A stretch of DNA of 64,000 nt. Origin: Antedon mediterranea. Taxonomy: Eukaryota; Animalia; Echinodermata. Below, piece by piece: positions 1,555 to 63,667 of this stretch. The translations under genes and the position numbers were made by a program. Under the pieces are notes generated by a model that saw only the letters and a program-made list of their open reading frames with translations, was not told the origin of the DNA and made no database searches. Position 1 is the first letter of the stretch. Every line of letters begins with the position of its first letter. The DNA lies in contig NC_092677.1 of the NCBI RefSeq assembly GCF_964355755.1, forward strand, positions 4,858,101 to 4,922,100. The letters run 5' to 3'.

Positions 1555-1626
1555 ACTTATACTGATAATTTTATGTTTAAAGTGATTTAACGTTTGTGAT
1601 GTATGTTTTGTCCCATGTTTTCCCAG

Positions 1627-20615: not shown

Positions 20616-20633
20616 TCCCGGACGAGCCCCCCA
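20616..20633 (-). promoter_or_regulatory. Primer binding site complementary to the tRNA-Pro 3' end
   Basis: The minus strand reads TGGGGGGCTCGTCCGGGA 4 nt after the 5'LTR; the known tRNA-Pro PBS is TGGGGGCTCGTCCGGGAT. Confidence 0.85.
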
Positions 20634-27290: not shown

Positions 27291-27337
27291 TATGACCTCT
27301 CGCCTGTATTTTCATTTTCTCCCCCTTCTTTTTATAG

Positions 27338-34900: not shown

Positions 34901-36290
34901 TGTCTTCCAACACTTGTTTTAGCATCCTCTCCTTTAAACTGGTCACTTTGTGCTTTACATGCATATCTCCCACCATATTCTTCAGTAGCTGATTTAATTA
35001 CAAGCACTGACTCTACATTGTTATTTGCTGTTACGTATTTAGAAGTTTCATTTATATTGACTGTCTGTCCATCTTTATACCACGTAATGTCAGGAATAGG
35101 GTCACCATCATGTTTACTACATGTAAAGGTCACGGAATGACACTTATATGCAGAACCTGATGACACATTAAGAAGAGGTTGATCCAAGTCTGTAAAAACA
35201 TAATAAAATAGTACTGCAATGTGACAGTTAATAAATAAAGAATGATATTTATTATTATTTCAATTTAGTCGGACATTTACTGATAGCAATCTTTTGGTGA
35301 ATGTCAGAGGGGATTTCAGATATATAGCTACTAATCGTGTAGCGTAATGTACCGATGACATGCAGTGCCGGCATCTGCATGAACCACCGAAGTAGATTTC
35401 CAGGCCGAGAATAATTGTCTTCATACATTTCAGATATTATTTATTTACAAATGAAAGAAAAAAACAATTTTTTTAGAATAATGACATTAATTTTACTTAC
35501 AATATACAGTTAGTAACGATTGGTTTGACATTTCAATGTTCCCATTTTTTGCTCGAATCTTGCATTGAAATGCTCGTTTAGAATCACCTCTGGTTGGCTG
35601 TGACATCACCAAGTCAGCTCTACCAGGTGTTATGTTTAACTTAAAACGATCATTTTCCATCTTGTTCTTATTAACAAAACCAGGATTAATGATTACCCCC
35701 TCATGTAGTTCATCCCATTGTATTACATCAGGTGTAGTAGACATAACTTGAGAATAATCACAAATTATTACCCCTTCAACGTCACCCTCTTTTGCTTTTT
35801 GGTCAGATGCTGTCACCGACTGTCCATGTGATTCTAACAAAAAGAAAAAAATACCAAAAATACTAATACATGATATACTAAGGTGTTTTGATAAGCAACA
35901 TTAATCGTAAAATCAGATTAAAACATTTATGAATTTTTATTTTTCAATGACGTTTAAATTGGACTTGGAAACATTTCATTAAGACACGAAAACTGTTCTA
36001 ATTGTTTTTCTGTAGAAAAAATCTAAACGGCTAATATGTTGTCCTTATCGTCCTTATAAACATGTTTTTGTGTGTCTACTATCTATCTACTCCCTGCTGT
36101 TGTAATTTCAACCATAACACGCATTTATTTTAACTATTTAACTATACAGTATGTCTGTCTGTTATACGACAGCACCAACTAATAATAAAACTAATAGAAT
36201 TACGATATTAAGAAATACCACTAGAGTGTAATATACTTTACCGAATAAAGAATGCTGTATAACAATTAGCAACGTCAACCATAACGCCAT
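31907..36290 (-). CDS. Gene B: intact type-I Ig-superfamily receptor (SP-V-I-domain3-TM-ITAM plus Tyr repeats), 594 aa
   Basis: 11 GT-AG exons: 36290-36242, 35833-35501, 35189-34881, 34562-34332, 34206-34112, 33995-33831, 33670-33572, 33112-32993, 32826-32719, 32419-32300 and 32062-31907. Total 1785 nt, open from MALWLTLLIV to TAA. Confidence 0.9.
32300..33670 (-). repeat. Four tandem phase-0 cytoplasmic exons (two types, alternating) encoding HQYQDLQV...DD(E/D)GY
   Basis: Direct translation; CTTGCAGATCTTGGTACTGATG-type core at ~32378, 32775, 33061 and 33618. Confidence 0.9.
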
Positions 36291-40600: not shown

Positions 40601-43600
40601 GATAACGTACCAGTTAATATAAAAAGTGCTTTGTCTAAGAAGAGTTTTTCTTTTAAATTGAAACGGCACCTCTTATCTAGTTATGTTTAATTATCCTTTC
40701 ACTCATTGTAGTTTTGATATTTAGTCTTTTCGGTACCCTGAATCTAAAAGTCTTCATTACTGTTTTTGTCCTGTTTCCGGTTCCCGTGTTGTCCTGTTTT
40801 TTTTTTTCAGTTTCTATGGGCTGCCTTATACAAGCTTTGCTTTTTAGGAATGTTGCCCCTCTTATTTTAATAATTTTTACTGTTAATTTTTATTTTCTAT
40901 GAAAGACAAGAGAAATAAATGTTACTTTGATTGATTGATTGATAGCACTCCCGCTATTGTTAAACATCACATCCAAAATAAAACTGCTTATTTTTATTTA
41001 TGATCTCTACTACATTAAGTGAAGTGGATTGTTTTAGTAATTTTGTTGTGAATAAGTTATAACCTTCATTGAATAGAAGAATAAAATATTACTTATTTTA
41101 TATTAATTTGTATTTTATAGTAGATTTTATGAGTTAAATTGTTTACTAATGATTCAATTTCTAAGAAATGTTTCTATGAATTCCATAATATGTTGATATT
41201 AATAATTATGTTTTATTGTTTTTTCAGATTTAAAATCATTCTACATCATTCTGATTGTTGTGATAATTGTTGGTTTGTTCCTATTCCTATGGTTACTGCT
41301 CGTTGTTTGTAAGTATTTTGATCTTTAATGCTTCATTGAAATATTAGCATACAAATAATTATAATCAATAAGCTATTGTTACTCTCTGTGTTTTGTATGT
41401 TATAGTGATCATTTGAAAGGTATTGAGAAGTCTGTTACCATTACAGCATTTTGATGAAATTGGTATATTTTTTGGCCTAATTTTAACAATTTTTAATGAA
41501 TATTGTTTTTGCTTTTCATTTAAACAAGTTTTAGAAATAAAAGAATTAATGTATAAGGATATAATAACTGATTATACAATGTATAATAATAGTATTGTTT
41601 ATTATAAAGTTTTTTATGTTCAATGATTTTTATTTCAGATTTTATGTATTACAAGAATATTGAGTGGAGCAATACAAATATTAATACAGTGACAGTTGAA
41701 GGTGGTAAACCAGTTACGATGAGTTGGAGATACCGTCCAAGTATTGCAAGGTTCAAGACTTTTGAAATAAAGAAAAAAGACAAGGTGCTTGGTTCAAATC
41801 CAAAGCAATTCAGTAGTTGTAAAACAGTCTGTCAGTTTGTCTGTTATTGCTGTCTTTACTTTTGTGGATTCTTTTGTAGTGAATACTGTAAGAAATCTTG
41901 TAAGTATTGGTTTTTTAGTCTTTTCATTGATATATACAGTTTTTACAGTATCTATCAGATTCAATATCAATGCATTTATTAAAATTCTTTTATATAATAT
42001 TTAATAATAATAATAATAATATTTTCTTATTGATTTTTCATAGTTGAATACAACAATAAAGATAAACAGAAAAATGGAAACAGGTGAGTTCCGTGTACTT
42101 TATTCACATTATATTAATTATAAGTTTTGTGCGTGTAGATATGGGGGTATAGCTGGAATGATGAGTAACCACATCAATGTTTACAATAAAAGTAAAAGAT
42201 AAAATAAAAGTAGTTGAATGTTATTATCTTGTATTGTGTTCCTATAGCAGTGGTAATAGAAGTGGTGAAGAGTATGAGATGATGGTGACTGAAAGAGACG
42301 GTCCTGATGGTGCAGAGTTCGCAACTGAAGACACTGCTGTACACCAACCAACAGCAGTCTCTGTTTATTTAGAGGTTTGTTTTCTGAAATTTAAGTAAGC
42401 CAAGGTTGTTAGTTTTAGTTTTAAAGAAAAAAATGTTTTATAAAAGATCATTAAATCAGGATGCCGAAACTGAAGACACTGCTGTAACATGCAAAGAGTT
42501 TATGAGTTCTATCTAAACTATAAGCACTTTTAACTCAGCTCGACTATGGGAGTAAGAATTCAAAGAAAACCAACATGCCTTTAAATGATGTTGGTAAAAG
42601 AAAGGGCAATGACAATCAACTACAGTATTTAATAAACTAAATTTATATAGTTATTGTGTAAACAGGTTTTTGAAAGTTTATTTGAAAAATAAGTGTCTTG
42701 ATTTTTTTTCGAAGGCATGTCCAGATGATGAAGAAAGTCAACTTATATCCGAATATCAAGAAACATCAGGTGAGAACACTTTCAATGACTTAAAAAAAAT
42801 TAAAATAGAACATTGCCGACTTCTGAATACCATAATAATTGAATGTTATGTCTGTTCAGATTTGTTTATTAAAGACACCTTCCCTACAATTTGTGACGTT
42901 TTGTAAAAATAATACATATATATTACTTTAAAAACATTAAACCAGGTCATTCCTTGTCTTAAATGTACGTTTTATGGTAAATTATGATAAAAAGTGAGAA
43001 ACAATGCACTACCTAAGTAGCTCGCGGCGAATGACCTCTCGTGGACGGTCTTTAGGCCTACTGTAGCCTAGCTAGGCTTAGTTTTCTAGGCCTAGCTCGT
43101 AAACATCAGTAACGTACGAACATCGTACGCTAGCTATATACCTAGCCTGACGTTGTGTAGTTGCTACATTAATTGTCTTTCTATTTTTGCCAGACTCTGT
43201 TGATACAAATTGGGGAAAATCCGGTCTTCCATTTGATTTGACCTCACGATCGATCGAAAAGTGGGTGAATTACAGAAGAAAAACAAAAATATCAATTCGT
43301 GCGCAATGCATTTTGGGATTTATAGTGGGCCGCTATAATTATTAGAATCGACTTATTTTTCACATTTGTAACCATTTAAAGACGAAAAAAGTTATCGCAA
43401 TAGGACCATAGTATTATTTTTACATTAAATATACTGTAGTTTGTGCTCTTAAATTAGATCTAAAAAACGTAGGGAAGGTGTCTTTAATTGTTCTTCTAAA
43501 AGAATAAGCAAACATCAGTTATAAATCTGTGGCGAATCCCTCACAAATTGTAATGCAAATGATAGGATATCAAATTAAGCTCTGGCAGCCCTTCATTTAA

Positions 43601-46600
43601 AAATCATGGATCTGCCATTGTCAATAGTGAGTTTTTTTTGTGGTTACTGTACATTGAATTATCCTCTACTTGTGAGGTTTAATGACTCTTAACTTTCTGC
43701 TTTCAAGGGTGTATCTTACTGTTATTTTTATTTTTGCCTATACCTTAAAAAAGCCTAAATCTCTACTGTTTATGTACTGTATTGTATTTTTTATGTTCTA
43801 GCAAAATACCCAAATGAAAGGTAATATTTTATCATCAAGCTTTGAATGAATATGCAGTTCACTTCTTTCTTAAAATACTGACTGCAAAAAAAAACTATGC
43901 TTATGATTCCCCGTTGTAAACATTATCTAAGTACAAAAATATGTTAAAGGCATGCAAGATGAAACTTTATATTAGTGTTTAAACATGTGTATAGATGATG
44001 ATTATTTTAATAGAAATTAAGCTAAAATTTCATCCCACAAAATGCTCTATTTTAGTATTGTTAAATTCAATTCAACTTTTATTGAAATATTGGGGCAAAA
44101 TATTCTGACCAATTAGCTGGTCATAATATTTTGCCCCACTAAGACATAATTTTACTAGATTATTATTCACTTTTATTTCAAATATCAAAAAAATTGACCA
44201 AAATTACAACTCGTGGCAAGAGCCAAATTGCGTGTAAAATACATGTCATATCAAAAATATATATATAAAAATATAAAATTAAAAAAAACAACAAACAACA
44301 AAGAAGGGGAGAGCAGTCGCAAGCTTGCAGGGGAGAAAATTAAGAATTTAATAATTTGATGAAGTAGGGTATAGGACTAATTAGTAAATCTGGATGTTTT
44401 AGACGCTAGCTGGGTAATTTTGTTTTTATTTCTTAAATTCCTACCATGACAGCTATGTCTGGTCGGTGGGATTAAATCAGCTGTTTGTTTAATTTTGGGG
44501 AGATACTCAGCGAACTTGCAACAATGCTCCACCCTTCTTTGTGCCAAAAGTCTCTAATTTAAGAAATTCAAGGGCACCAGAGTAAGAAAAGTAATCGTTG
44601 CCTAACATTATACGGCAAGCCCTCTTTTGTACATTTTCAATACAATCGCTTAATCTACAGTACTAGTCAGGCCAGAATGCCAAACAACATCAGCATACTC
44701 AACAACTGGTCTAATACAGTATAACCACAAAAGGTCAATTTAGTACATTATGGATACTTAATTTAATTTTTAGTTGGGCCTCAAAACCACAACCTCCAGA
44801 TCACCAGACCATCAAGCTGTCGCTGATTGCTAGATCCAAGTTTAAGCCTTACAACATTTTTACTGTTGCTACTCACTTCTTGCCTATGTTGGTTCTTGTT
44901 ACATTTACCAAAAATGATATAATCATTCATTGTGTGATGTTATAATATTTTCTTTTTTACTTTGGCTGCTATCTCTTACAATGTATATAGTATTGTCCAT
45001 TACAGTCTCCATCCGCTTACTTACCAAAATATACATTGTTCTTCATTAGATATTTTGATTATAAATATATGGTTTCTTTCACCTGCTTATACATTGGTTG
45101 CTGTATTCTACAATACATTGATATGTATATTATACTATTGTACTCTTACATTTTGATCATAACAATAAATAAGTACCGGTATTAGAATTTAGTCATCAAA
45201 ATTAGTGCGAGTTAGTGTGGTGAGACTATAGTACAAAGTGAATTACAAATATGTTTTTTTATTTCATTTTTTAAACATTTTTAAACAGAATTAATTTATA
45301 TATTATCATTGCAAAATAACATTTATCATTTTTATATTTTAAAGTAAATGTATAAATCAGCACTGTTTTTAAATCCCAGATATGTCCCTGATATATTTAT
45401 AACTTTACTATTTTTCGTTTTGTTTTAGATCTAAAACTTCATACTCAAGTAAGTATTAACGGAAATATTTTCAATTTTGAATTACATTTAATTAAGCATT
45501 GTTGAGTGACATTCACACAAATCCAAATGTCAGTTTCATTATCATTTTGTATCCTTTGTAAGTACCGAGGGGTCACAGTGAGTGAAAGTTAAACTGTACA
45601 TTATCAAAGTGTTGGATCATTTTACCTTGAATCTTTAAAAGCAACAAATAGTTTTTTTAACTTTGCGTTTAAGTGTCTACAAGTGGTAGAGGAAAAATCA
45701 ACCTAACGTTTCCAAATTCTGTGAGATCTAATTCAGGAGAGTACCACTGCAGTATAGAGGGCAGCAGACAACAGTATCCAGGTGTTACAAATTTATTTGT
45801 TTATTGTGAGTTAATAATTCTGTGATTTTTTCATTACAGTGTAATATATTACCTCATGTTTACTTTTTGTAAAGTTTTTCTTGAAAATGGAAATATAATT
45901 ATAAGAAGCAAATTCCATATATTGCATAATATTTGTATATATAATTTTATTATTTAGGGATTGAGATGGTAAATTTAAACAACTCAACAGAACAAGGCTT
46001 CAGTAATGCTAAAATGATGTGCAGATATGGACCAGCAGATATGCCATTAACAGGTTACAAGTGGAAGAAGATTAAGAAAGATGGCACAACAGAGATTGAG
46101 GATTGTTCTAAAGATTCTAGATTTGAAGTAACAAGTTACCAAAATAGCATTCTGTCTTTGAAGATAAAGAAGGCTAAACTTAAAGATGCTGGCAAGTATC
46201 AATGTGAAGTGACGCCAGTTGATGGAGGACAAATACTGAAAGATACTACACAACTGACAATTGAAAAAGGTAATTTTATGTTGAAAGAATCTTAAAGATG
46301 ATAAATGTTCTTATTTCATAATTTACTGATTTATAGTCAGCCTAATTCACTGTATGTATTTAGGAGGGGATTTTGATATGGGAAAATAATTGTCTGGAAA
46401 TATATTTCTAGACGCCCAGATAGCATCTGAGGCATTTTTACCGGTCAATTCATGTCATAAAATTATCTGAATATAGTGTGTTTTATAGACCATATTTAAT
46501 ATACAAATTTTTTGTTGCCAATAGCCTAAAGCCTGTGTGTGTACAGAAAGAATAATAACAACTAGACATGAAACTCGTCACTTTGACGAGTTTGGTTATC

Positions 46601-49600
46601 CACCGCGCAAGGGGTGCAACATGGACGTTTAACGCACAGATAAAGATTATGCCATTATGACTTGAACTGAAAAATATGATATGTTGTTATTGCTGAATTC
46701 TATTATTTTTATTCATATAGTATACACAGTATAATCTGTATCCATATCACATACAGTGTAGAATAGGTGAAATTACGGGACCCGCTATTTATTGCAATTT
46801 TTAACATGTTTACGGTTTTAAAATGAAACGCGAAGGTAGCAATTTCGGAAGGAAATTATCTCAGCAACAACATATTAACGTGTAGAAGAAATTTGAATAC
46901 GTGAAATATTGATGCACGCTCTTTTAAATGTGATGAACTATTACGCAAAATATGAAAATACGACTGTTTTTATTTAACTGGCCATATGATGACGTCACAA
47001 CATCCGATTGGCAAAATTTTTACATGATTTCGTATCTACAATCCAATAGCTTCCAGCCCGTTTTAATTGTGATTATCACGTTTTATTCTTACGATTAAAA
47101 TGTACTGTAAAGATGAAATTAACGCCACACATAATTAAAATTTTTAGGCATGATGACGTCATAAAAATTAAAATATTTTTAAAACATGCGAAAGATAGTT
47201 GATTGACCTAGACAATATCAAAATCTGGGTGAAAATGGAAAACGGATAAGTGGAGATGCGCTCTATTAAATGTGATGAGCTATGACGTAAGATACAAAAA
47301 TCCTAAATTTTATATTTGGGTGGCCATACGATGACGTCACAATGTCCGGTTAACCATATTAATGCATGATCCCATATCTACAACTTATCAACTTCCAGAA
47401 TATGCAATAAAAATAACTTTGACCGTTTAGTTTAGAAACTACGACTGTTTAAAAAAAGGTATAATTTTGACGAATTTTTGAACTTTTTCATAAAAAATGC
47501 ACGCAAATTATCCAATTCGACGTGCCCGTATGACGTAATTTTAAGTCGAAATTGTTTAAAAGTTGGAAAAATTACTGAAAAAGGCTGAAATAACATAAAT
47601 CATTCAAAAAAATTATGTTTTAACGCTACGTGCGCACCGTGCGTGTGAAAATTTGCGCGCGTGTGGGAATTTTTGACATGCCTAAAATGACATGAAACGC
47701 GTAAAAAATTGATTAGAAATTAATTTTGCGCATTTTGAAATTTTAAACGCGCGTGCCTGCGTAACTTTGTGTGAAACACGCAATTTTTTTTCAACAGAAA
47801 GTTAGCGCATGATATAAATTAAACTTTGTGCAAAACACGTAATTTTTTTCACACAAAAAGTTAGCGCATAACATAAATTAAACTTTTGCTAAGTTTCAAA
47901 TTAAAATGTTATATTGTTTTCGATCTATGTTAAATACGCGAAATTCATAAAAACGCGCGTAAGTCACGTTGCGCAACTCTGACGTCATTAAAAAATAAGC
48001 GGTGCACAACTTCACGTGAATGCGCATGTTGACAAAGTTAGGAAATGTTATGTTTACAAGTTTTAGAGATACGCTCTGCACAAAAATGACAGAAAGAAAG
48101 AAGAATACAGAAAAAAAAGATGAAACAGGACAGTTACAAGGAGTTATCCGCTCAATGCGGATAACTAAAAAAAGATGATGATGATGATGATTTCGTACAA
48201 TCACAAGAGGTTATCCTGCAACTTCGTTGCGGATAACCAATAAAGATTTTGTACAATAACAATAGGTGATCATTTTATTCTAAATGATCACCTAATAAAG
48301 ATTTCATACAATAACAATAGGTGATCATTTTATTCTAAATGATCACCTAAATAAATATATTTTACAAAAGGGTATTAAATGTAGAATATTATTTAGAATA
48401 TTTATATAAAGATATGATGATCATACAACAGTTCCTTACAGTAGTAATCCCACTAAACACACCTTTTCAATATGAACTTAATACCAGTTATTTAGGCATT
48501 ATCTATCGTCTTTGTATTAACTTTTTAAACTTCTTAGTATAGAAAAATATAAGAAAATGAAAGAAAAAAGGAGGTACAGTAGTATGGAATATAAAGTGAA
48601 TTTACAAGATTTAAAATGTTACTCAGCTGAAGTTTTCTCAAATGTAATGACATTAGAAATTAACAAAAATGTGATGAATAATAATGATGATTTTGGTGAT
48701 GACATGAAAGATGATATTAATGTGAATAAAAATGGTATTAATGCAACAAAAGAGAAAACAAATGAACTTAATACCAAAGAAAAAGATTTCAAAAAGCAAC
48801 TTATGTAATTTCTTGTCTTATTTAAATGAACCACTAATTTATGCCCTTATAAGACTCATGTTTTTAATCATTCTAGTTTTAAAAAGCTATAGATTTTTTT
48901 ATCTCACAGTCATCATTCACATTTGTAATAAAACATCTATTCTATCAAAGTTTGTAATTGTATTATATGCACATACCTGTAATTTATTTTTAAATTGTGA
49001 TATTCAAAATATTGATGATTTGTTTTGTCTTGTTTTTTTAGTTCCTCTCATCATGGAGATTCCGACCATTATTACCAGAGAGAGTGTAAATTATGTTAAG
49101 TTGATACTGAAGTTAACAAATGTTAAAAATTATGGTGAAATGTCCAATGTCATGTGGTATAAGCATATTGAAGGTAAAGAAAACAAGCTGCTGACATCAA
49201 TAAATTCACCTGATTCAACATCACGCTATCAATGTGGATATGTTGATGAAAGCAGTGCATATCTTGAGATCAGGAATGTTAAATCTGGAGATGAAGGAAA
49301 ATACATATGTCAAGTTGAATTTAAAGAAATGGAGCAACACAGACACAGTTGTTCTGGAAGGTTAACAGTTCAAGGTAAAAGCAGATATACAACTGGATCA
49401 TAATCAGGATGTTAGTATTATTAAGGAGGTTATTTCAATGGCAGTGAATATAAATACATTTTGAGCTTGGAATTGATAAAATTGAAAGGATTCATCCTTG
49501 AAACTTAATAATGTGTTGGATTGTTTGCCGAGTGTTATGTTTATGTTTTATAGTAAACCTTGTTAGTGTGAACCTTCCTTTCTTTTTTTAAATACTAGAG

Positions 49601-52600
49601 CCTAAAAACGAATTGAAATGCTAAACTATTTGTTGTATTGTTAACATTTTAAAGGTGGACCACTTTCAATATGCCAAGGAGGTATTATGTAGTCGATCGC
49701 GTGTGTTTGTTTGTTAGCAGGATTACTAAAAAAGTCATTTACCAAAATTAAAATACAGATAGATATGTGGTCAAGGAATTTTCAAAAGCCGGTGAGGCAG
49801 TCTTAAAGTAACAAGTAAACTGAAATTGCATTTTCTCGAGAACTACTTGTCCAAAAAACTTCATTTTTGTACAAGAGGCAAGAGTTATAATTTGTAATTT
49901 TAAAACATTTTTTTTTTTTTCAATTCAAAGTAACATTTATTTTCTTCAAAATAAAACAGTCTACAAAATGGAAAGAAAGGTAATTTAATATGATTGAAGA
50001 AGGCATGATCAAAAAAGCAAAAAGCTTGTGACAGACATGCCTAAACAAAGATTAGAAAAAAACAACACGGAAAAAGAAAAAAAATAAATAAATAAAAAAA
50101 ATAAAGAAATAACAATATAAAAATATACATAACATGGGTTAAACTAAATAAGTAAGATAACTAAAAAAAAACAATTTTGGTATAAATTAAGAATTGATTC
50201 GTCTTCTTGTTACTCATCATTAACATTATTATCATAAAATGTAATATAATAAAAATTAATACTTGGATGTGATATATCTTTTAAGTTTAAATGAAAAGCT
50301 TTTCTTAGATACAGCAACTTTAATATTTGAAGGTAGTTTATTCCATAGTTTAGGTCCACTAAATCTTATGTTATATTGAAATGATGTTTTTTTATGAAGA
50401 GGGATATGCATATCCTGTACAGTTCAAGTTCTATAATTGTGAAAAGATGCGTTTCGTTGTAATAAATTTGTAAATTGAGGTGGGTTTAGGGAGTTAATCG
50501 ATGAGTAGAGAAAAGTACACTGTTGATGATAGTTAAGATCTTTCAACTTTAAAAGGTTTAGGGAGGAAAATAAGGGATCTGAGTGAGCTAGTGGTGGTGC
50601 ACCTGATATTATTCGAACTACTTTCTTCTGTTTGATAAATAATCTGCTAGTGTTGGACTCATACGTGTTGCACCAAACTACATTTGATTTAATTTACAGG
50701 TTTTTTGATACGAGTAGTTTTGAAAAACCTATTTCTTTTCAAATTCACCCGTTTGTCTTTGGCGTTGCTGTTCTATTGTTAGTCAACTGAAACTATTGTT
50801 TGTTGAAAGGCTGGTTACATAACCATTACACCAAATTCGCGTACACATGCTTGTAATGAAATTAGCCTAAGACACACAAAAATATATATATATTTTCCCG
50901 GAGAAATCTTATGTAGGAGAATTTTACAGTAGGCGGAGGTATGCACTCTCGGAGTGGCTTCTAGTTGTTATTGAAAGCAATATAATCAAGACAATCAATT
51001 AAAATATTTTGGTATTAATATTGATAATCAGTATGTTACTTGCATTTTGGTTTCAATAAATTTACATCAAGGCATTCAAGGTGTATATTAAGTCTATTTC
51101 ATTTATTTATTAGACTTTATCACTGCATATAAAAATAAATTTTAAAAATCAGAAGAACAAAGGCAGTAAAAAGAAAGACATGAACAAGTGGCCAGCACCT
51201 CTATCGATATCCTTAAACAAATAATTACATGTATTCACATATTTTGACAACTGACAAGAAATGACATTTCTATAGATTTTAAACAAACAAGTCTTGGTCA
51301 ATTTACTCTTGCATATATAGAAACACTGATTTGAAATCAATACTTTCCACTATACGATACATAATTTGCCTAATAAATTTATTTTAAAAGGCAAATTTAT
51401 AAATTCTGGTAGGTAAATATTTTTTAAAACAGGTACTGTATCACCCATATTATTGATCGGTATCAAAAATAATAATTATTACTACTGTTAGTGTATTACT
51501 ATTAGTATTTAATAATTAGTATAAATACAAAGAGGAATCTCATGTTGAGGTCCTTGTTTTTTTTTTCTATATACTTTACAATGTACAGAGTTAATACATT
51601 TTGTTTTCTTTGAATGAAATAATGGAATACAAAATTTAAAAAAAATGTTGATATACAAACCTTAAATTTAAGATCCTAACAGGATTTATCAACATCATAT
51701 GTTTACTATGAAGCATAGATGATTTGATTTAGAACACAATAAAAAAAATTATATACATGATATTATTATAAATGGGAAAATATTGATTTTTGTTGAAGTT
51801 TAATCTTTCTCCACTATGTCAGAAATGTTGACTAATTGCTAAATTCTAACTTTTAGTGCACCAGGAATAGACTTTCAGATTCAGAAACTAATTGATGGTT
51901 GTCTATACCTTTAAAGATTTAACAAAATATTTTAAAATAATTTTAAGAAATAAATATTTACAGTAACATGGTTTGTCCAGTATTATCTTTATTTTAGAAA
52001 TTCTCACTAAAATGTAAACATATCTTTTGTTTAAAAAAGATTTGGAAGTGTATGTATTGGTATTTTTTAACCAATACAGTGATTTTGTTACACATAAAAG
52101 CTTTACCTTTATATCCCTCATTATGCAGTGATTTAGAAAAGATCTCTAATAATCCTTGTCATTTTCATGTACATTGTCATTTTTTCAGTGCTTTCAATCT
52201 ATATCCATCAGTGGCTCTCATCTTTTCTTATTCATTCCTGACTATTAAGGATTATCTGTTGGCATTGTTGTTTGGCATATTCTTATTTTAGTGCAGTGTC
52301 TGTATGTAAATGAGAATCTGTGTATAGTGCTTATATTTTACAGAATGTAAAAGAGAATGTACAGTTTCATGTCCTGCTTTGCTCTTTGCTATAATTCTAT
52401 GTTCTTTTTCTGAATCACTATGCAATGCCACCAAGTGTGTTTTTGTCTATGTTCTATGTTGAAAAATCTGATGCTGGTGACTACCTTTGTCAATGTGTGA
52501 CAGGAGGAAAGGATAATGAAATTCACTCGGCAACAAGCAAATTAGTTGTGGATTCATGCTGTAAGTATGTTTGGTGTTATTGGTACATTCAGCCACTCAT

Positions 52601-55600
52601 GTACACTGAGCCAAATTTCTGTAATTCTGTTGCTGTTGCTTTCATTATACCAGTCATTGTTGGTGTAGTATAAACTCTTGCGTGCTGCTCTTATGGTTCT
52701 TTACAAGTTATTAAAATATATTTGCATTAATACATCAATCTGTGTGTGATCTGTAGAGTTGGCATACAAACCCTCTCAACTTTATTGCCATTATTTGTCT
52801 CGCAATATGATAAATTATGCACATTTTCATGGTAATTTGACATGGCCTGAATAGAATATAGAAATAGATGAATGAGAAATTCATTAAGTATTTCAATATC
52901 TTATCTTTTAGTTTTAGACATGGATGATAGTTTTGTAGCATCAGTTGGAGAAAAGGCTGCTTTAACTTGTAAAATATAAAATAGAGGATAAAGATATTTT
53001 CGTCAGTTGGTATATTAAGAAGACTAATGAAAAAAAAAATTCATATGGTCTTCTGATAAATCAAAACAGAAGAAGATATTAAAAGAAGTACAAGAAAGAT
53101 GCAAAGTAACTTTTGATGGTAATGGGTCCTGCTTAGAGTTGGAGAAAGTGGAATTGGTTGATGCTGGACAGTACATTTATGAACTTTATAAGAATGAGGT
53201 TAATGTTATGGGCACAAAAAAGACACCATTACATACAAGAGCATCAAGCCTGTGTGTACAATGTAAGTCAATTGTTATTCAGGTTTTGCTTCATGAACCC
53301 TCATTTTGTGAAGGTTATTTTCTTTTCAAAAGTAACCTGTAACACAATGTGAAGAGTGGCCCAGCCCACCCAATCTCCCACCTTTAATTTCGACAATGTA
53401 AAAGTAGGTTAGCTTCAACATTTCAAATCACAATTTCTGCCTATGCCCTATCCTGTGGATGAACTGCTATTCTCTGATTCTGATGAATAGTAGTTTATTG
53501 CCCAAAACATATATTGTAGCCCAAAACGTATATTGTAGCCCTAATAAATGCAACTGTCATCGTAACATTTTAACATCATAACATTTTAACAGTCATATTA
53601 ATAATTTTATTATTTATTTTACAGTTATAATACATTAAAGATAATGCGCACTACAAAAAAATTATCAGAAATATTACCATAACTCCCAGAGATAAAGTGA
53701 TGCATACGTAGGAATGACGCACTTTGTTGATGTTTTAGAGCGATGTTTTTTGAAATTAAGATTTTTTTGGCAAATTAATTTAGTGTATGGTATAAAAATC
53801 ATTTTCTTTAGAAGTAAATGTTCAACAGATCTTTTTGTTGTTTTTTGGGGGGTTTTTTTGTCCTTAGGGTCCTCATGAGAGAAGTCACTGTCTTTTTGTG
53901 ACCCTTTTAAGTTTTACCAGTTCGTTTATTTGTTTAATCTATGTATGAAAATTTAAAAAAGATACTCAAGTTCGTTATTAGACCTAATCCATTTAGGTTT
54001 TTAGATCTAAGTGCAATCATTGCCATAAGTTCATGAGATGAGATAATTGATGGACAAGTCATATTATTCTGACAAAATCAACAATATGCAATGCATAACG
54101 TAATGAATGTTTAGTTAAAATTGTTAAAATTTTATACAAAAATAATATTGAATTGAAAATTGGTTTATTTTTGTAGTAGTGGATGTGTTTTCTGCAGTTG
54201 ATAGGGAACAAAGAAACATTTACAGGTAATTGTTATGACTATTTTAATCCCGATACATCACCATCTACAAATACTATTATAGATTATGGAATTGAAATTG
54301 GTTTAGAGAGGTTTGTATTTACATTTGTGTAGTTCTCTACTACTATTGTTGGTCTAACTCTAAGAAAGATTTATTGTGATAAGAAACTAGTTTGTATTTG
54401 AAATAAGCAATGTATAAAAAAATAATACAATTTTTATACATAGTATTTAAACTTAAAACGTATAAATGTTGGTAACAGCTTCTATTCTGCTTTCTTTTTT
54501 CCCCATATAATTAAAGTTCCATTTCTATTTACTGCATATGGTCATTAAATAAACAAGCATGAAGCTCTGTTGAATGGAGGAGATTAAAAAATAATATATA
54601 TATATCATAAACCTTTGAATTTGTTTTTCATATGGTTGTAATCTGTATCTGTGTGGCAAATTAACTAAATATATTCGTCCTCCATTTATTTGCCCTTATT
54701 AAGTGGCACGAAAATAAAAAAAAAATTTTACGGTTAAAATGAAGTGTTAAATTTTGTTTCTATTGAATTCTACTATTTACTATACAGTTTTCAGAATCTA
54801 GTACTAATTGTGACAGATAAGAACAATGGAAAGGTGATTCTCATGTGTATTAGAGAAAACAACAACACAAAAGAGAGGAAGATTATAAGGATGACATCTG
54901 ATGATAATGGAGAGAATTGCAATAGTCTAAGTGAAGTACAACTTGATTATAAATTCAATAGATAGCCTAAGTAAGTAGTTTTCAATGATTTTCCATGGCC
55001 AAAACACTGATCAAAAAATTGTACGGGAAAATATTTTATTGAGTTTGTTACTTCCATATTATTTTTAACTACAATTAAGGTCACAAAGGTACATTTTATG
55101 TAAAATAAATACTATATGGACCCAGTGGGATTTTTTTTATCTTTAACCGGTTAAAATGTGAAAAATAAGTTGATTACAATAATTTAAGTGGCCCGCTATA
55201 AATATCAGAATGTATCGTGCGCGGATTGGTACTGTATGTAGTTAACCCTAGCCGAAACTATGCCTAAGATCGTCCACGGGAGGACATTCAATGTGAGCTA
55301 CTTGTGTAGTGCATTGTTTCTCTGAATTGATCATAATTTACCATAAAACGTACATTTAAGACAAGGAATGACCTGGTTTAATCTTTTAAAAATAATATAT
55401 ACGCATTATTTTTACAAAACGCAGAAGAAACAATTAATCTAAGTCTATAAAGTATAACTTTTTTTTTATTTCAAAATTTTATTTTCACGTCTACTTGGTT
55501 ATATGTGTAGTGGGAAAAGGTGTTGTCTTGATTGAAAAATTAAAGATATTATACAAAAAATACATTTTGTTTTTCAGGCTTGGGTAATGGTGTATGCTTA

Positions 55601-57390
55601 AATTCTGGAAAATTGGTTATTGCAGGAATTTTGAAGCTGAAATATGATCAGCGTAAGAAAGTAACATTCAAAGAGGCCTCAAATAATTGCCCTCAAACAT
55701 TGCACATACAATATTCAATTTATGTTCCTTTCTCATTCTTAGTTAACAGACATATTTAATGTAGGAGATTATTGTCCTCCTCATTTAACCCTTTACATAC
55801 AATTATAGAAACTAGAGGGTGTACTCACTCTATATTAAGTAGTGTACAGAGATAGTTCTTGAATTAAATTATGAACATGTAATAAAAATTGTTCATCTGC
55901 CAGTCTTCACATAATACACTAGTTCTAATTTTGTTTTAGTTTTGGAAATTAATATCAACATCTACATAAACTATTCTTGTAAACTGAACAAGTAATAAAT
56001 AATAACAATTGATATTATAGCGCTCTACAAAGAACACAGCACTTTATAGTAGAAGTATAATTGGATACAGACGTATTTGAAACAACATGTCGTCTTTACA
56101 TTTCTAATGTCACAGAGAAGCTGATTTCAAAGATGCAGATTACATGCTTTGTCACTAGCTTGTGTGAGAAATTATTAGTCTTGTGGCATGACGGTGCAAA
56201 CGTAGTCGACATTTGTGTTGTTCAAAATTAGAGTATATTACTCTGGAAAACTGGATATTTTGTAATGAAAAGCAACACTTCATGATCTTATAATTGATCT
56301 TGTGAAAATTTACTGTAGCTAATATTGCTTTCCAAACACTTGCAAAAAAAAAGCATTGAAAATATATTTTAATGGCTCTGGAGCTGCCTCTACATAACCA
56401 ATCAGAGATTTCAAGTGTAATAATTAAAACTTCTACATACAGTATGGCATAGATCTGATCATTAGTTGTAATTATTTTAATTTTGAGTTATTTGTGCTGT
56501 TGTTTTTGCAGGAAGACTATTTGTAATGAGAAGTGTCGATAATGGTGACATCTGGACAACTGATGTTAAACCACTTGATGCTCCACCAGATGCTACCTTG
56601 GGAGAACACATACAAGTAAGATGAAGAATTTTCCATTGTGTTTATTTGAAATTGTGGTATCAAGTTTTTTCACACAGATTTTAGTAGAGATCTCTAAATG
56701 TTACTTTGTCATATAATGTGATTTTTATTAGGTTGTTGAATATGCTAATGATCTAGTTAACATCAGCTGTTCGTTCGAGGGCTCTAAACAGTGTTTCTGT
56801 ATATACAGTGATACAGGATTTAAAGTATTTGATTGCCAGATTAAGGATGCAAATCCAGAATGCCAGGTACTTTATAATATGAAAGCTTGTATCTCTAGTG
56901 TTGTCTGTCTAGTTGTGGTATATAGTTGTATAGATACACTACCTATCTATTTTAATGTATTCTAAAATGTTGTCATCACTACTACTTTTACAATAAAAGG
57001 TGGAAGTTCTGCTGTAGACACAAATACAATAATGTTGCATGAACTCTGCTTCTTCATGGATAAATTATTTGTACATAATTTTTCCTTAAATTGCATTTTT
57101 ATCTAGGGTTGTATCGTACGTTTACCAACAAAGACAAATAAGTTCTACCATATAGCAATGGCAAGTCATGGAAATGAAACGGATAAGGATCTTACACTTT
57201 ACTTAAGTGAAGATGGTTGTAAAACCTGGTATCAGTTTAACACACTAGGTGCAGTGAATGCAGAAGAATCTGACCTAGCTTACTACAGTGTAAAAGAAGG
57301 TGAAGAAGAAGCAAAAGGAATAGTGTGTGTTACAGTTATGGTTCAGAAACAAAGGGTTATAATATTGGAATGCAGTTAATTTCTAACAAA
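37695..57390 (+). CDS. Gene C: SP-V-I-domain3-TM-linker-multiple Ig-sialidase-like protein; 5' part open, 3' part disrupted
   Basis: In-frame exons 37695-37727, 38569-38620, 38877-39206, 39305-39613, 39962-40186, 41228-41308, 41639-41899, 42044-42083, 42248-42374, 42715-42769, 43802-43820, 45429-45448, 45958-46269 and 49042-49374. Then frameshifted Ig exons and sialidase exons. Confidence 0.7.
40510..40943 (+). mobile_element. CR1/L2-group LINE 3' fragment
   Basis: KTTSFKHSIKFTGPKLWDNVPVNIK..SFSFKLKRHL; tail AATAAATGTTACT(TTGA)n; same family as 49920-50690. Confidence 0.75.
41639..41899 (+). CDS. Gene C juxtamembrane exon: Ig-like N-terminal strands plus a Cys-rich hydrophobic segment
   Basis: TVTVEGGKPVTMSWRY...CKTVCQFVCYCCLYFCGFFCSEYC, phase 1-1, good splice sites. 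Confidence 0.65.
42873..43483. mobile_element. Non-autonomous DNA transposon with TTAA target site (Kolobok-like)
   Basis: TTAA|AGACACCTTCCCTAC ... GTAGGGAAGGTGTCT|TTAA; a partial inverted copy lies at ~55130-55420. Confidence 0.8.
44063..44745 (-). mobile_element. CR1/L2-group LINE 3' fragment
   Basis: Minus strand CIRPVVEYADVVWHSGL..ENVQKRACRIMLG..SPIPYFIKLLN; tail AATAAAAGTTGAATTGAA. Confidence 0.7.
45958..46269 (+). CDS. Gene C post-TM Ig exon (canonical C-W-C)
   Basis: MMCRY..YKWKK..LSLKIKKAKLKDAGKYQCEV..TQLTIE, phase 1-1. Confidence 0.9.
46561..48350 (-). mobile_element. HINE/Helentron-like non-autonomous repeat(s)
   Basis: AACTAG next to hairpin AAACTCGTCA-CTT-TGACGAGTTT; GGTTATCC/GGATAAC subterminal repeats; terminal hairpins at 48140-48350; related fragments at 3340-4700 and 58340-58880. 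Confidence 0.55.
49042..49374 (+). CDS. Gene C post-TM Ig exon lacking the B-strand Cys
   Basis: NVMWYK..SRYQCGY..AYLEIRNVKSGDEGKYICQV..GRLTVQ, phase 1-1. Confidence 0.88.
49670..50966 (+). mobile_element. HINE-like element interrupted by a minus-strand CR1/L2-group LINE fragment (~49920-50690)
   Basis: GCCAAGGAGGT..TGTTTGTTTGTTAGCAGGATTAC start and GGCGGAGGTATGCACTCTCGGAGTGGCTTCTAGTT end. The nested minus-strand peptide reads QKKVVRIISGA..HSDPLF..GPKLWNKLP. Confidence 0.65.
52344..53262 (+). pseudogene. Two frameshifted Ig exons of gene C (52344-52560 partial; 52918-53262)
   Basis: VEKSDAGDYLCQC..SKLVV; ASVGEKAALTCK/ ..VSWY../ ..LELEKVELVDAGQYIY with indels in A-runs near 52973 and 53035. 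Confidence 0.75.
54177..57390 (+). pseudogene. Sialidase-like exons of gene C
   Basis: Exons 54177-54225 (DVFSAVDREQRNIYR), 54788-54970, 55578-55652 (GLGNGVCLNSGKLVIAG), 56512-56615 (SVDNGDIW), 56732-56866 and 57107-~57390. Stop at 54963-54965 and a 1-nt deletion near 57331. Confidence 0.8.
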
Positions 57391-57455
57391 AAAAAATAAG
57401 CACAAAGACAAATTCTGAACGATATTAGAAACTGATCTGCTCAGTTTCAATGGTA

Positions 57456-59092: not shown

Positions 59093-62000
59093 TTAGTCAT
59101 TGAACTGTTTACAATAATATGATTCTGAAACTTTTCCTATTTTGAATGTACTAGTAACGCCACTATCACAAATCTCTTCGTAAAGGACATCAGGACTTGC
59201 CGAAACCAAACCTTTGTTTTGTGAATGTTGGCGTTCCATTTCAATTCCACGTCTCATTGCCTGAAGAAAGAATAATTTATTATTTTATACTCGCCTCTTT
59301 TATTTTATTTAGATAGATGCCTACAATATGTTGCATGTTGTAAAATGGCTATTTATAGTTTATGCATTTAGCACACCAATTTTGTTTTTCTTTTTGTTGT
59401 TTCGCTAAGCGCCGTACAATATAATATATTATCTTATAGTATGATTTTACGTGCCTACTTTGTCATTGTTATACGAAGTGTATAGTGTTTACCTCTAGTT
59501 TTGATGCACTATCGTCGCCTATGTCATCACTAGACAGTCCTTTGTATTGAGGATTTTGGCATTTGATTTCTATCACTTCTCTTTTCTAATAATATAAAAA
59601 GATTTCAAATTCGGTGTTAAATGTCTTGAGTGGCATTAAGTATCAGAGTTGGTGAAATAAGGTGATATTTTATTTTATTCTCAACAAATTTCATCTGGTA
59701 AAAAAAATAGTTAACATTTATTTTTAAATATTTTATTTTATGTTACCCCAAGTTTTGCACTGCATGTAGGCCTAACATATCCCTCGTCATCTATCTCGTC
59801 ATCAGCTGCCATACTTTGGTATTGATTACTTTGATCTTGGATTTCTCCTACTTCTTTCTGTTAAACAATGCAATTATTGAGTGTTAATTGACCTTTTATG
59901 TTTAATTTGTAAAAATGACAAATAAATAACGAAACTAACTTTGAACTTTATTATAAATTATAATTCATCAACATTGATATTTATCAACTCAGAACTTGAA
60001 AATAAAATACGCGACGAAAATTAGCTTTTACTATAAGGCCTATTGTTTTCAATTAGCAACTGTAAAAAAAAATCTGTAAATCAATCATGCAAAGGGTATT
60101 TTTAAGCAAAGTTTACCTGTATTATTGTTCTGGATCTTTCTTTATGTGACATGTTAGAAACACCAACCCCTGCCGTAGCACTTTGGTTTGGCACAGCGGC
60201 AGATTTAGAATGTCCTCCCTGATATGGAGCATTTTGATGTCTGGAACTGATTTCTTTTATTCTTCTTACCTTTAAAACAATCGGTAACAACAGATAGTAG
60301 AGAGAGTAGAGTTTATTTGTACATTCTTCTCTATAGTTCTTTCTATTGCAAATATACTTACATAAATACAACGGGTTATCATAAACGTCAAGACGCAGCA
60401 AAGAATAGTTGCAGTTGTTGCTATGGCTGTACCCATTGGATACAAATCTATACAAAGCCAATATCAAATGTTTAAAAAAATTAATATCACTTCAAACAAT
60501 TTTACAAGCACGAACGTTTTATACGTTAGGTATACAATGTGTTATGGATAGTTCAAATAAAAGTACAACAATACTATCTACACAGTTGCTGCAGTATATT
60601 CTGCCTATTTGTGAAAGTACAGAAGAATGTACCAGAAAAAACTGGGATGTTAAATTAATAGAGCTAGAAAAGACTTTAAAACAATGGAATGCTAGAAATC
60701 TCTCAATTTTTGGTAGAATAATAATCCTGAAAAGTCTTGCACTATCTAAATTAACATATGCTGCAAATATCACTGATGTTCCAAAATATGTATATACACA
60801 AGTTACAAATCTAATATATAATTTTATTTGGAACAATAAAAGGGAAAAGATAAAAAGAAAAACTCAAATTGGTGATGTTGAGATGGGAGGCATTAAAATG
60901 CCTGATTTTACTCTTCATGTTAACGCACTCATGTGTGGCTGGTTAAAAAGAATGATGATGGTGCTAAATGGAAAAATATTCCAATGTATTATATTAAAAA
61001 AATATGTGATATTAACGTGTTACTTAATATGTCATGTTATAACATTATTGATGTTAATTCTGATAAAATTCCACTGTTTTACAAAAATATGATAAAAGCC
61101 TACATAAATTATAACAGAATCTCTAAAAAAAAACCTGAAACTTATAACGATATAATGAATGAGCAACTGTGGGGAAACAACTACGTTAAACTAAAAAAAA
61201 AAATCGCTTTTCTACAAGCATTGGATTGACAGTGGCATTATCAGTATTAAAGACATTGTTAATAAGAACACTTTTTTAACATCAAACGAAATACTGGTGA
61301 AACTACAATGTAAAACAAACTGGTTAAATGAGTATTTGTGCATTATTAAGGCAATACCAATTCAATGGAAACGTATTATTAAGGAGGTAGATATTTTCAA
61401 TTGTGATGATAATGATGAATTAGTTGGGACCAAGTATGAGATTAATACTACCAAACTAATATACTCATGGTTTGTGAAAGAATATTTCATTATTCCAATG
61501 TCACAACTAAATGGGAAGAGTACTTCAATGATAACAACATTGATTGGAAAACTTCTTGGTTACGGAAAGTATGTAAAATGAAAGATAAGAAACTAGCTCA
61601 ATTCAATTATAAGATGTTACATAGAATACTGCCTACCAACAAACGGCTGTATCAGTGGAAAGTTAAGGAAACACAAACGTGTGACAAATGTGGAGAAATT
61701 GAAAATGAAAATCATTTGTTTTTTAGTTGTAGATTTATTCAGAAATATTGGAGGAAAATGCTTAGTATCTTTGTAAGTTTAAATCACAATAATATATCAT
61801 TTAAACAATTAATACTAGGAACGGGAGATAAGCTAATAGATTATATTTACACTTTTGCAGCATTTACTATTTATAGAATAAAAATGTTATCTGCACTAAA
61901 TAAGCCAGTGGGTAAATCTTTATGGAATTCATTTAAAAGCAATATGTTATATAACATTGAATGTGAAACATATAACAATAAAGAAACAAGTATAGAAAAA

Positions 62001-63667
62001 TGGGTAGCTTTAAGAAATAAGATTATGATAATATAATTTCTAATTTGATACGATTAACCGAAAAAGAATTACAGTGATACGGGTTACTGGTGGTACTGAG
62101 CTATTATTGTTTTTTTTGTATCATGTATATAAATATATTGTATAATCCGGGTTGTAAAATGAAAACAAACAAATGAAAAAGTGTGAACTATTTTAAAACG
62201 GGATAGATGATAATGATGATCCTGTCAAGTGTATAACAAAATATAAAAAAATTAATGAAAAAAGGAGTAATACAGAATTCATATATGTAAAAATGTTACT
62301 TATGAACTGTAACGACATTTACAAGTTAAATAATACGATTTTATGTAATATGAGATAATATGAATGTGAATAAAAGTGGTGTTTGCGCCACAAAAGAGAA
62401 AAAAAAAGTACAACAATTCTACTATCTAGTCATAGTCATATATACTTTATTGTCCATTTAAAAAACAGAAATGTGATTTGAAAACTGGCAAAATACAAAA
62501 ATAAAAAAAATCTACACAGTTGCTGCAGTATATTCTGCCTATTTGTGAAAGTATTCTTATATCTTTAAAAATTATATTTAATAATGTCATTTAATATAAC
62601 TAGAGCGTGTGCTCGCTCACCTTCTAGTAAGTTACATGATGGTTCTCGCAAATATTGACAATAGGCGTAGGCCTACTAAATGTTTGCTGTTTCGGCCTAA
62701 AAGTGAGTGTGGACCGAAATGTCCCAGATATGAGTTTTAAACGGGGCGTAGCATGACATGCAAAAATGGATTGAAAACGCTCCATTTAGTGGTTGTAAAA
62801 CCCCATATGAAACAATATTCTATATGCTTGCTAAAATGTTTTATCAAATCTACCCATCTCAGTACATCTCTTGGTGTGAGTTGGATGGTGTGTGGCAGTT
62901 TTTTTTTTGCACATTGTGCAGGGCTATGTTGTTGAACTATAGTTGTTAAGACGCTTACCTGCAATACAGTAGTTTTCTAGTAGACATATTGCTGTATCGT
63001 TCAGCTCTTTTTCAGTTTCTGTATGCCATGGAATACTTGACTGACATATCTTATCATTAGTTCCTAAAGTAACTGTATTTTTCCCTTGCTTAATCACTTC
63101 CCCATTTTGTATTATCATTACTGATGATGGCTTGGGTTCGTCCTCTTCTGTGCATGTTGCTAAAACATCTTCCGATTGAAATGTTACAAAGACATCTAAA
63201 CAAGTGAGAATAACTGTATGGTATATTTTGTATTTATGGTCAACAACACATATTATGTCTCTAGATCTGAAATCTGACATATTATGTGTTGTTGGAACAC
63301 AACTTCTTGAATTGAAAAGGCTTAAGCCAATAACTGTTATTCCAATACCACTTTTACTTACTGTATATGCTCAACTGTTTTCCAACACTTGTTTTAGCAT
63401 CCTCTCCTTTAAACTGATCACTTTCTGCTTTACATGTATAATTCCCACCATCTTCTTCAGTAGCTAATTTAATCTTAAGAACTGACTCTGTACTGTTAAT
63501 ATTGGTAATCTCATATCTAGAAGAGTTGTTTGTGTTGACTGTCTGTTCATCTTTATACCAAGTAATGTGAGGAATAGGATCACCATCAGGTTTGATACAG
63601 GTAAAGGTCACCGATTGACCTTTATAGGCAGCACTTTCTGTTTCACCAAGAAGTGGTTGATTCAAAT
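59093..63667 (-). CDS. Gene D (5' exons beyond the window): Ig receptor paralog of B with an ITIM-bearing tail
   Basis: Exons 63667-63362, 63195-62959, 60447-60362 (TM), 60269-60117, 59857-59747, 59585-59493 and 59260-59093, all in frame to TAA. Confidence 0.88.
60620..62407 (+). mobile_element. 5'-truncated L1/Tx1-clade LINE (ORF2 C-terminus, frameshifted) in a gene D intron
   Basis: WNARNLSIFGRIIILKSLALSKLTY..GGIKMPDF..FNYKMLHRILPTN..CDKCGEIENENHLFFSC; AATAAA and A-tail; flanking direct repeat. Confidence 0.9.

What the first reader, a model, noticed from the sequence alone, without database searches (positions are those of the whole stretch)
59093..60269. Activating/inhibitory switch between paralogs B and D
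At homologous positions B has YQAL-x8-YKDL (ITAM) where D has YQGG and no second Tyr. In the last exon B has GFYEEP where D has VLYEEI, which fits the ITIM consensus (I/V/L/S)xYxx(I/L/V). This reciprocal change is the signature of paired receptors, here in what appears to be an invertebrate; function is inferred.
Basis: partly seen in the sequence, partly recalled or inferred. Interest (0 to 1): 0.8.

Follow-up and report, generated by a model that had tools for sequence, protein, structure and literature searches.

The report
Feather-star receptor lost its activation motif
In a feather-star cluster of antibody-domain receptor genes, copy B carries an immune-type 'on' motif that copy D has lost, but D's supposed 'off' motif occurs in no other family member found and likely docks Src-type kinases rather than inhibitory phosphatases, so the two are likely differently wired receptors rather than an on/off pair.

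Summary
The motifs are real and sit in homologous exons of two genes with open frames, B and D, in a crinoid Ig-receptor cluster (D equals Antedon mediterranea XP_071958833.1). B's ITAM is credible: 4 of 9 related tails have it (0.3-1.7% by shuffle), and D lost it. D's ITIM is weak. The consensus appears in 27% of shuffles of D's tail. Ile at +3 occurs in 1 of 7 paralogs with that exon; 5 keep YEEP, one as VLYEEP. YEEI is the classic Src-family SH2 ligand, and a charged +1 residue failed to recruit SHP1 in a published test. ITAM loss recurs in 5 of 9 tails without significant ITIM gain (Fisher p=1.0 broad, 0.17 narrow). B and D ectodomains are among the least alike in the family (Ig2 66%, Ig3 47%), unlike paired receptors. 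A better inhibitory candidate lies elsewhere in the family: a member with tandem VTYADL/IKYVDL, which one isoform skips. The scan noted similar feather-star receptors on other DNA. Verdict: a new member of the known invertebrate ITAM/ITIM Ig-receptor clusters. The B/D switch is only partly supported.

The parts
59093..59260 (-). D last coding exon (55 aa + stop)
   Evidence: X1 contig covers 59132-59259 with 0 differences
59171..59188 (-). D VLYEEI: ITIM consensus match, fits Src-family SH2 patterns; Asp at -3
59105..59116 (-). D YCKQ (YxxQ), shared with B, P0013 and P0030
59493..59585 (-). D tail repeat exon with YKGL
   Evidence: X1 depth fits this exon
59747..59857 (-). D tail repeat exon with YQSM and DDEGYVRP
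60117..60269 (-). D first tail exon; ITAM lost (YQGG, second Tyr absent, net 12-nt deletion)
60362..60447 (-). D transmembrane exon
62959..63195 (-). D third (short) Ig-like exon
63362..63667 (-). D I-set Ig exon; the V exon lies beyond the window end
33831..33995 (-). B first tail exon; ITAM YQAL-x8-YKDL at 33950-33903
32300..33670 (-). B four tail repeat exons (33670-33572, 33112-32993, 32826-32719, 32419-32300), each with YQDL; two with acidic YVRP
31907..32062 (-). B last exon with GFYEEP (31999-31982) and YCQQ
34112..36290 (-). B signal-peptide, V, I-set, short Ig and transmembrane exons (36290-36242, 35833-35501, 35189-34881, 34562-34332, 34206-34112)
38876..57393 (+). Paralog C: same ectodomain, tail with inner Ig domains and a sialidase-like end; converges on D; frameshift in an inner Ig exon
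596..29323 (+). Paralog A: C-type gene converging on B; frameshift in its I-set exon near 1650

Best explanation
B and D are two diverged copies in a feather-star cluster of single-pass immunoglobulin receptors with tyrosine-rich tails; B keeps the ITAM and likely recruits a Syk-type kinase, while D has lost the ITAM and likely works as a Syk-poor docking scaffold whose YEEI site binds Src-family kinases rather than as a phosphatase-recruiting inhibitory receptor. Shown: the gene models, the ITAM in 4 of 9 tails and its loss in 5 of 9, tails built from repeated phase-0 exons, and a spliced D contig in one run. Inferred: ligand binding clusters the receptor and a Src-family kinase phosphorylates the tail. 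B's ITAM and four YQDL repeats would then bind Syk, and YEEP or acidic YVRP would bind Nck/Vav/Abl-type adaptors. In D the Pro-to-Ile change would keep Src-family binding and drop Nck/Abl/Vav binding at that site, while YQSM (PI3K-type, recalled), YVRP, YKGL and YCKQ (STAT3-type, recalled) remain. D would thus give a weaker or rerouted signal. True inhibition in this family most likely comes from the tandem-ITIM member P0005/P0028.
For: ITAM at the same position in B, P0018, P0004 and P0012; the Anneissia homolog P0020 keeps two Tyr with 8 residues between the YxxM and the second Tyr. ITAM members sit in both main clades of a weak tail tree, so loss looks recurrent. Last-exon site: YEEP in 5 of 7, YEGH in 1, YEEI in D only. 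[quoted passage not shown] In that paper's Table 3 the Src, Blk and Hck patterns accept P or I at +3, and SHP2 N-SH2 needs a hydrophobic +1. D's site matches Blk/Hck/Yes/Shc1 patterns and no SHP pattern. Polar or charged +1 residues (S, T, K, D tested) failed to recruit SHP1 (PMC8631942). B-D tail exons run at dN/dS of about 0.5-1.2 (first exon 0.83, last 1.17) against 0.51-0.56 in the Ig exons. P0028 has VTYADL and IKYVDLDL 31 residues apart, fitting the SHP1 and SHP2 patterns; isoform P0006 lacks those 81 residues.
Against: No binding data exist, and all SH2 preferences are borrowed from human domains. Glu at +1 itself was not among the substitutions seen. D departs from a YEEP site otherwise kept in 5 of 7 paralogs through a two-nucleotide codon change, and the X1 contig carries the same site, so the change may be selected. 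With the narrower ITIM rule, 3 of 5 ITAM-less tails match against 0 of 4 ITAM tails (p=0.17). B's ITAM has no acidic residue at -3 (a feature recalled from vertebrate ITAMs). Amphioxus SYK can be inhibitory (PMC13344425), so 'ITAM means activating' is not safe. Syk, SHP and SHIP were not looked up in this genome (none held).
Confidence: 0.6

Rival explanations
1. One reading: D is an inhibitory receptor. It lost the ITAM and gained an ITIM (VLYEEI) that recruits SHP or SHIP, and it pairs with activating B.
For: VLYEEI matches the ITIM consensus used for Hydractinia and Botryllus. D alone lost both the Leu of the first half-site and the second Tyr while keeping the first Tyr. SHP2 N-SH2 prefers Ile/Leu/Val at -2 and a hydrophobic +3 (PMC11287265). 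Narrow-rule trend 3 of 5 against 0 of 4. The site is unchanged in run X1.
Against: The consensus arises in 27% of shuffles. There is a single site, not a tandem one. Glu-Glu at +1/+2 fits Src-family domains. It is unique to D. D keeps YQSM, YVRP and YKGL. B is D's least similar Antedon relative in Ig2 (13th of 13) and Ig3 (14th of 14).
Confidence: 0.12
2. Drift: D's tail is decaying or changing neutrally, and both the ITAM loss and YEEI are incidental in a fast birth-and-death cluster. D would act as a decoy or adhesion molecule with little specific signalling.
For: dN/dS near 1 in the first and last tail exons. ITAM damaged in different ways in 5 of 9 tails. Neighbours A and C carry frameshifts and D carries a LINE fragment in an intron. 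D has a long branch (0.93) in the tail tree.
Against: All four D tail exons keep frame and GT-AG sites. Seven tyrosines remain, including DDEGYVRP and YCKQ unchanged against paralogs. A spliced contig in X1 has 0 differences over 128 bases, while a contig just downstream of the stop has 8 over about 338 (small numbers).
Confidence: 0.2
3. The family is not immune at all: these are adhesion or neural recognition molecules whose tyrosines drive cytoskeletal adaptors (Nck, Crk, Abl), and the ITAM match is a by-product of repeated YxxL exons.
For: The nearest solved structures are generic I-set proteins (titin, Dscam, Robo, LAR, Dpr4). YxxP sites occur in 7 of 9 tails. No tissue data.
Against: Lineage-specific expansion, exon-number variation, repeated motif loss and a tandem-ITIM member with an isoform that skips it resemble Hydractinia Alr and Botryllus FcoR. 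The ITAM spacing is kept in 4 paralogs.
Confidence: 0.08

Closest known systems
Hydractinia Alr family (bioRxiv 10.1101/2022.03.04.482883; passages read)
   Same: [quoted passage not shown]
   Different: No sequence link was found or tested. Alr proteins have an Fn3-like domain and a known role in allorecognition; the crinoid tails are built from repeated tyrosine exons and no function is known.
Botryllus FcoR coreceptors (PMC12582321; passages read)
   Same: IgSF receptors with mixed ITIM, hemITAM and other YxxI/L/V motifs, encoded as neighbouring gene pairs, with motifs swapped by allele or splicing (compare P0028 and P0006, and the A/B, C/D cassettes).
   Different: The FcoR partner (FF) has no tyrosine motifs. 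Here both neighbours share the same ectodomain type, B has a full two-tyrosine ITAM, and co-expression of neighbours is untested.
Vertebrate paired receptors, e.g. CEACAM1/CEACAM3 and Xenopus ceacam pairs (PMC5112662; FcR/KIR background PMC2413239)
   Same: Ig ectodomain families with ITAM-bearing and ITIM-bearing members that arise by duplication.
   Different: Pairs share 80-93% of the ligand-binding domain, kept alike by gene conversion. B and D share 66-69% (Ig2), 47-49% (Ig3) and 57% over 30 V residues. B against the tandem-ITIM member P0028 is also only 62% (V) and 68% (Ig2).
Src-family SH2 ligand pYEEI (polyoma middle T) and Dok1 IpYDEP (PMC7337045; PMC3514216; PMC2172353)
   Same: D's site has the YEEI core with an acidic residue at -3; the family's usual site (F/I/L)YEEP resembles Dok1's Nck/Abl site.
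   Different: These are four-to-seven-residue matches to mammalian ligands; crinoid SH2 domains were not tested.

Membership tests
Paired receptors (B with D) | Highly similar ligand-binding ectodomains (80-93% in Xenopus ceacam pairs) | tested here: not met
   Ig2 66-69%, Ig3 47-49%, partial V 57% over 30 aa; not sisters in the Ig2+Ig3 tree. D's full V domain was not available.
Paired receptors (B with D) | One member has an activating motif | tested here: met
   B YQAL-x8-YKDL; shared by 4 of 9 tails; shuffle rate 0.3-1.7%
Paired receptors (B with D) | The other member has a credible inhibitory motif | tested here: inconclusive
   Consensus met, but chance rate is 27%, it is unique to D, and it fits Src-type rather than SHP-type patterns
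Paired receptors (B with D) | Shared ligand, co-expression and opposite signalling | not testable with these tools
   Only contigs of one probable RNA run were laid on D; no reads were laid on B
ITAM receptor (B) | Yxx[I/L]x6-9Yxx[L/I] in a cytoplasmic tail (definition) | tested here: met
ITAM receptor (B) | Binds tandem SH2 domains of Syk/Shark when phosphorylated | not testable with these tools
   Sea-urchin SYK accessions are listed in PMC13344425; crinoid Syk not looked up
ITIM receptor (D) | [S/I/V/L]xYxx[I/V/L] consensus | tested here: met
   VLYEEI
ITIM receptor (D) | [quoted passage not shown] | tested here: not met
   Glu at +1; human rules applied to a crinoid sequence
ITIM receptor (D) | Tandem ITIM/ITSM about 25 residues apart for bivalent SHP binding (common, not universal) | tested here: not met
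   D has one consensus site; P0028 has two, 31 apart, plus TSYFEL 22 further on
Invertebrate IgSF clusters with ITAM and ITIM tails (Alr-like, FcoR-like) | Clustered single-pass Ig receptors, some with ITAMs and some with ITIMs | tested here: met
   Four paralogs in the window; all Antedon relatives found but P0021 share one longest-contig length; ITAM members and tandem-ITIM P0005/P0028
Invertebrate IgSF clusters with ITAM and ITIM tails (Alr-like, FcoR-like) | Role in allorecognition or immunity, with high allelic polymorphism | not testable with these tools
   No functional or population data

The most novel reading that the evidence does not exclude
The cluster is an echinoderm paired-receptor system with exon-modular tails, and D shows an inhibitory receptor being born from an activating paralog: the ITAM was erased and four nucleotide differences turn a YEEP adaptor site into a working ITIM, alongside an older tandem-ITIM member that switches off by splicing.
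Probability: 0.12. Interest if true: 0.75.

Novelty: new member of a known kind. Interest (0 to 1): 0.42.

Why it matters
ITAM/ITIM-bearing Ig receptor clusters are described in a cnidarian and a tunicate, and oyster Syk signals downstream of ITAM-bearing Ig receptors. My nine literature searches (listings only) showed none for crinoids. This family gives echinoderms a candidate set of activating, rerouted and inhibitory receptors on one ectodomain scaffold, with tails assembled from interchangeable tyrosine exons. It makes the question of whether echinoderms use Syk/SHP balance for recognition testable with a few phosphopeptides. The specific B-to-D switch is the weak part: it shows how easily a loose ITIM consensus misleads.

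Tried and rejected
No whole genome is held, so the family survey rests on RefSeq models found by three protein searches, one profile search and three cluster look-ups. It is incomplete: none of B's tail exons occurs in any fetched protein, P0030 was found only, and P0021 and P0029 lack a last exon. No ortholog of B or D from another Antedon species or transcriptome was found. The run search listed no run on record as RNA; X1 is a guess. Only D's last two exons and the end of C were laid, so the upstream D joints and all of B's splicing lack read support. DNA runs X2, X4 and X5 show no cover over D's last introns; the tool says such holes prove nothing. Pfam finds nothing for B's V exon and no meaningful family for four tail exons; an AlphaFold model of paralog P0018 shows two Ig folds, a transmembrane helix and a low-confidence tail. 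Structure and fold searches give only generic Ig hits. P0031 (locust repeat protein) and P0032 (unnamed, YQDL-like repeats) were dropped as unrelated or unplaceable. C-type tails, P0011 (no Tyr) and Anneissia P0017/P0020 were left out of the 9-tail counts. The tandem-ITIM segment of P0028 has no match in the window, so A and C are not B's ITIM partner. Both trees are weakly supported. Complex prediction was not run: phosphotyrosine cannot be modelled with it. Look-ups of earlier findings near the window and by sequence gave nothing. No supplementary files were read; Alr and FcoR tail alignments in supplements could refine the comparison.

Full report
Setting. The window is AT-rich animal DNA (about 31% GC). 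Self-comparison shows four Ig paralogs: A (+), B (-), C (+) and D (-, V exon outside the window). D's I-set exon hits an Antedon mediterranea protein at 100% (P0002 = XP_071958833.1), so the animal is a feather star. A and C match long family members with inner Ig domains and a sialidase-like end. The window is therefore two convergent cassettes, A facing B and C facing D, with B and C head to head. That B and D come from duplication of such a cassette is an inference from this layout and from the DNA matches.

Observation. Splicing by coordinate gives B as 11 exons and 594 aa with no stop and GT-AG sites; the seven in-window D exons give an exact substring of P0002. The first and last tail exons of B and D align at DNA level (94 of 165 and 112 of 168 columns). 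In the first tail exon D has YQGG and a net 12-base deletion where B has its second tyrosine. In the last exon GFYEEP and VLYEEI differ by one base each at -2 and -1 and two bases at +3. DDEGY fits the three-acid start of the hemITAM pattern quoted for Botryllus but ends in Pro, not Leu, and both B and D have this kind of site.

Expression. No listed run is on record as RNA. In X1 (RNA by guess, a different sample and study code from X2-X5) one 252-letter contig lies on 59132-59259 with 0 differences, and its first 124 letters lie elsewhere. The depth in the bin holding exon 59585-59493 (5.52) equals about 95 bases of that contig's depth of 7.2, and the bin wholly inside the last intron is zero. 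I read this as a spliced D transcript carrying VLYEEI; the joint itself was not among the joints printed.

Family survey. Nine Antedon tails are homologous to B and D: B, D, P0004, P0012, P0013, P0018, P0021, P0029 and P0030. P0021 and P0029 lack a last exon, and P0004 and P0012 are near twins. The ITAM is intact in 4 of 9 (B and P0018 with spacing 8; P0004 and P0012 with spacing 9) and broken in 5 of 9 by different changes. The Anneissia homolog P0020 keeps two tyrosines at B's spacing as YQGM and YEIP, so the two-tyrosine layout is old but not a canonical ITAM there. At the last-exon site, 5 of 7 have YEEP (B, P0013, P0004, P0012, and P0030 as EVLYEEP), P0018 has YEGH and only D has YEEI; Anneissia has AIYEQS. 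The broad ITIM consensus is met in 2 of 4 ITAM tails and 3 of 5 ITAM-less tails (Fisher p=1.0). With Ser excluded at -2 it is 0 of 4 against 3 of 5 (p=0.17); on the seven complete tails p=1.0 and 0.14. Shuffles give an ITIM consensus in 27% of D tails and 43% of B tails, and an ITAM in 1.7% of B tails.

What VLYEEI resembles. pYEEI is the textbook Src SH2 ligand (PMC7337045, passages). [quoted passage not shown] Against that paper's patterns, YEEP fits Blk, Hck, Lck, Nck1, Abl1 and Vav1, and D's YEEI fits Blk, Hck, Yes and Shc1; neither fits SHP2 N-SH2. In PD-1, Ser, Thr, Lys or Asp at +1 failed to induce SHP1 recruitment, and bivalent tandem binding was optimal (PMC8631942, passages); Glu was not among the changes I saw. 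All these rules are human.

Are B and D a pair? Paired receptors have similar ectodomains, 80-93% in the ligand-binding domain for Xenopus ceacam pairs (PMC5112662, passages; background PMC2413239, passages). B and D share 66% in Ig2, 47% in Ig3 and 57% over the 30 V residues available; B is D's least similar Antedon relative in both domains (13 and 14 compared). In a weak tree D groups with ITAM-bearing P0018 (80/85), not with B. Exon-bounded counts give 69% and 49%. dN/dS is 0.51-0.56 in the Ig exons, 0.83 in the first tail exon and 1.17 in the last (own Nei-Gojobori script, about 50 codons per tail exon).

A better inhibitory candidate. P0005/P0028, a C-type member, has VTYADL and IKYVDLDL 31 residues apart and TSYFEL 22 further on. 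The first two meet the SHP1 rule and the second fits the full SHP2 N-SH2 pattern. Isoform P0006 lacks these 81 residues. Two or more ITIM matches arise in 7.6% of shuffles of that tail, so the case rests on motif quality and spacing. Its ectodomain is only 62% (V) and 68% (Ig2) like B's, so it is not a tight pair either. The segment is absent from the window.

Mechanism. Most likely (0.6) B recruits a Syk-type kinase through its ITAM and YQDL repeats, and D is an ITAM-less, rerouted scaffold docking Src-family kinases, with PI3K-type YQSM and STAT3-type YCKQ sites (these two labels are recalled, and YQSM does not match either PI3K pattern). Rivals: drift or decoy (0.2), true ITIM switch (0.12), non-immune adhesion family (0.08). 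Sea urchins have annotated SYK homologs, but amphioxus SYK can inhibit NF-kB (PMC13344425, passages), so even the sign of B's signal is inferred.

Comparison and novelty. The family works like Hydractinia Alr and Botryllus FcoR clusters (passages) and meets the sequence features of that kind. B with D fails the ectodomain test for a paired receptor. Nine searches (listings only) showed no description of this crinoid family. Earlier notes of this scan report other on/off-type clusters in the same genome (unchecked). Verdict: new member of a known kind, interest 0.42.

Noticed in passing
P0005/P0028 vs P0006 (XP_071958881/880/882; outside the window): Family member with tandem ITIM-like VTYADL and IKYVDLDL plus TSYFEL; one RefSeq isoform skips the whole 81-residue segment, a possible splice switch for inhibition.
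   Followed up: partly
window 596-29323 (+), 36290-31907 (-), 38876-57393 (+), >64000-59093 (-): Two convergent cassettes, each a sialidase-tail Ig receptor facing a tyrosine-tail Ig receptor; B and C are head to head with about 2.6 kb between B's start codon and C's V exon. This recalls Botryllus gene pairs; co-expression untested.
   Followed up: partly
window 32300-33670: B's tail holds four phase-0 repeat exons in two alternating types (copies 73-80% identical in protein). Repeat number varies across paralogs, from none or one up to about seven in P0018, so YxxL dosage is exon-modular.
   Followed up: partly
window 60576-62553: Decayed LINE 3' fragment on the + strand inside D's intron before the transmembrane exon, flanked by an identical 44-base direct repeat (60576-60619, 62510-62553).
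   Followed up: partly
window about 1650 and 52920-53000: Frameshifts in A's I-set exon and in an inner Ig exon of C; the RefSeq model of C (P0008) stops just after the transmembrane helix. A and C may be decaying while B and D stay open.
   Followed up: partly
window about 4470-23180: About five near-identical 3.7-kb tandem copies (about 99% identity in the pieces listed) inside gene A, each seeming to hold small tail exons, plus a reading frame near 19900-20500 (-) that looks retrotransposon-like (by recall); recent duplication or assembly artefact.
   Followed up: no
window 41641-41898 (+): C's first tail exon ends in a Cys-rich hydrophobic stretch conserved in all C-type members; it could be a palmitoylated anchor or a second membrane segment, which would change the topology of the inner Ig and sialidase-like parts.
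   Followed up: no
window 57107-57393 and 58232-58851: High summed contig depth in DNA runs shows that the sialidase-like last exon has many copies in the genome and that repeats lie between C and D.
   Followed up: no
P0020 (Anneissia japonica): Short homologous tail with YQGM, YEIP, TSYCDV (ITSM consensus) and AIYEQS: same tyrosine skeleton, different predicted partners.
   Followed up: partly
window 36290-31907: B is an open 594-aa model, yet none of its tail exons occurs in any fetched protein; it may be unannotated.
   Followed up: partly
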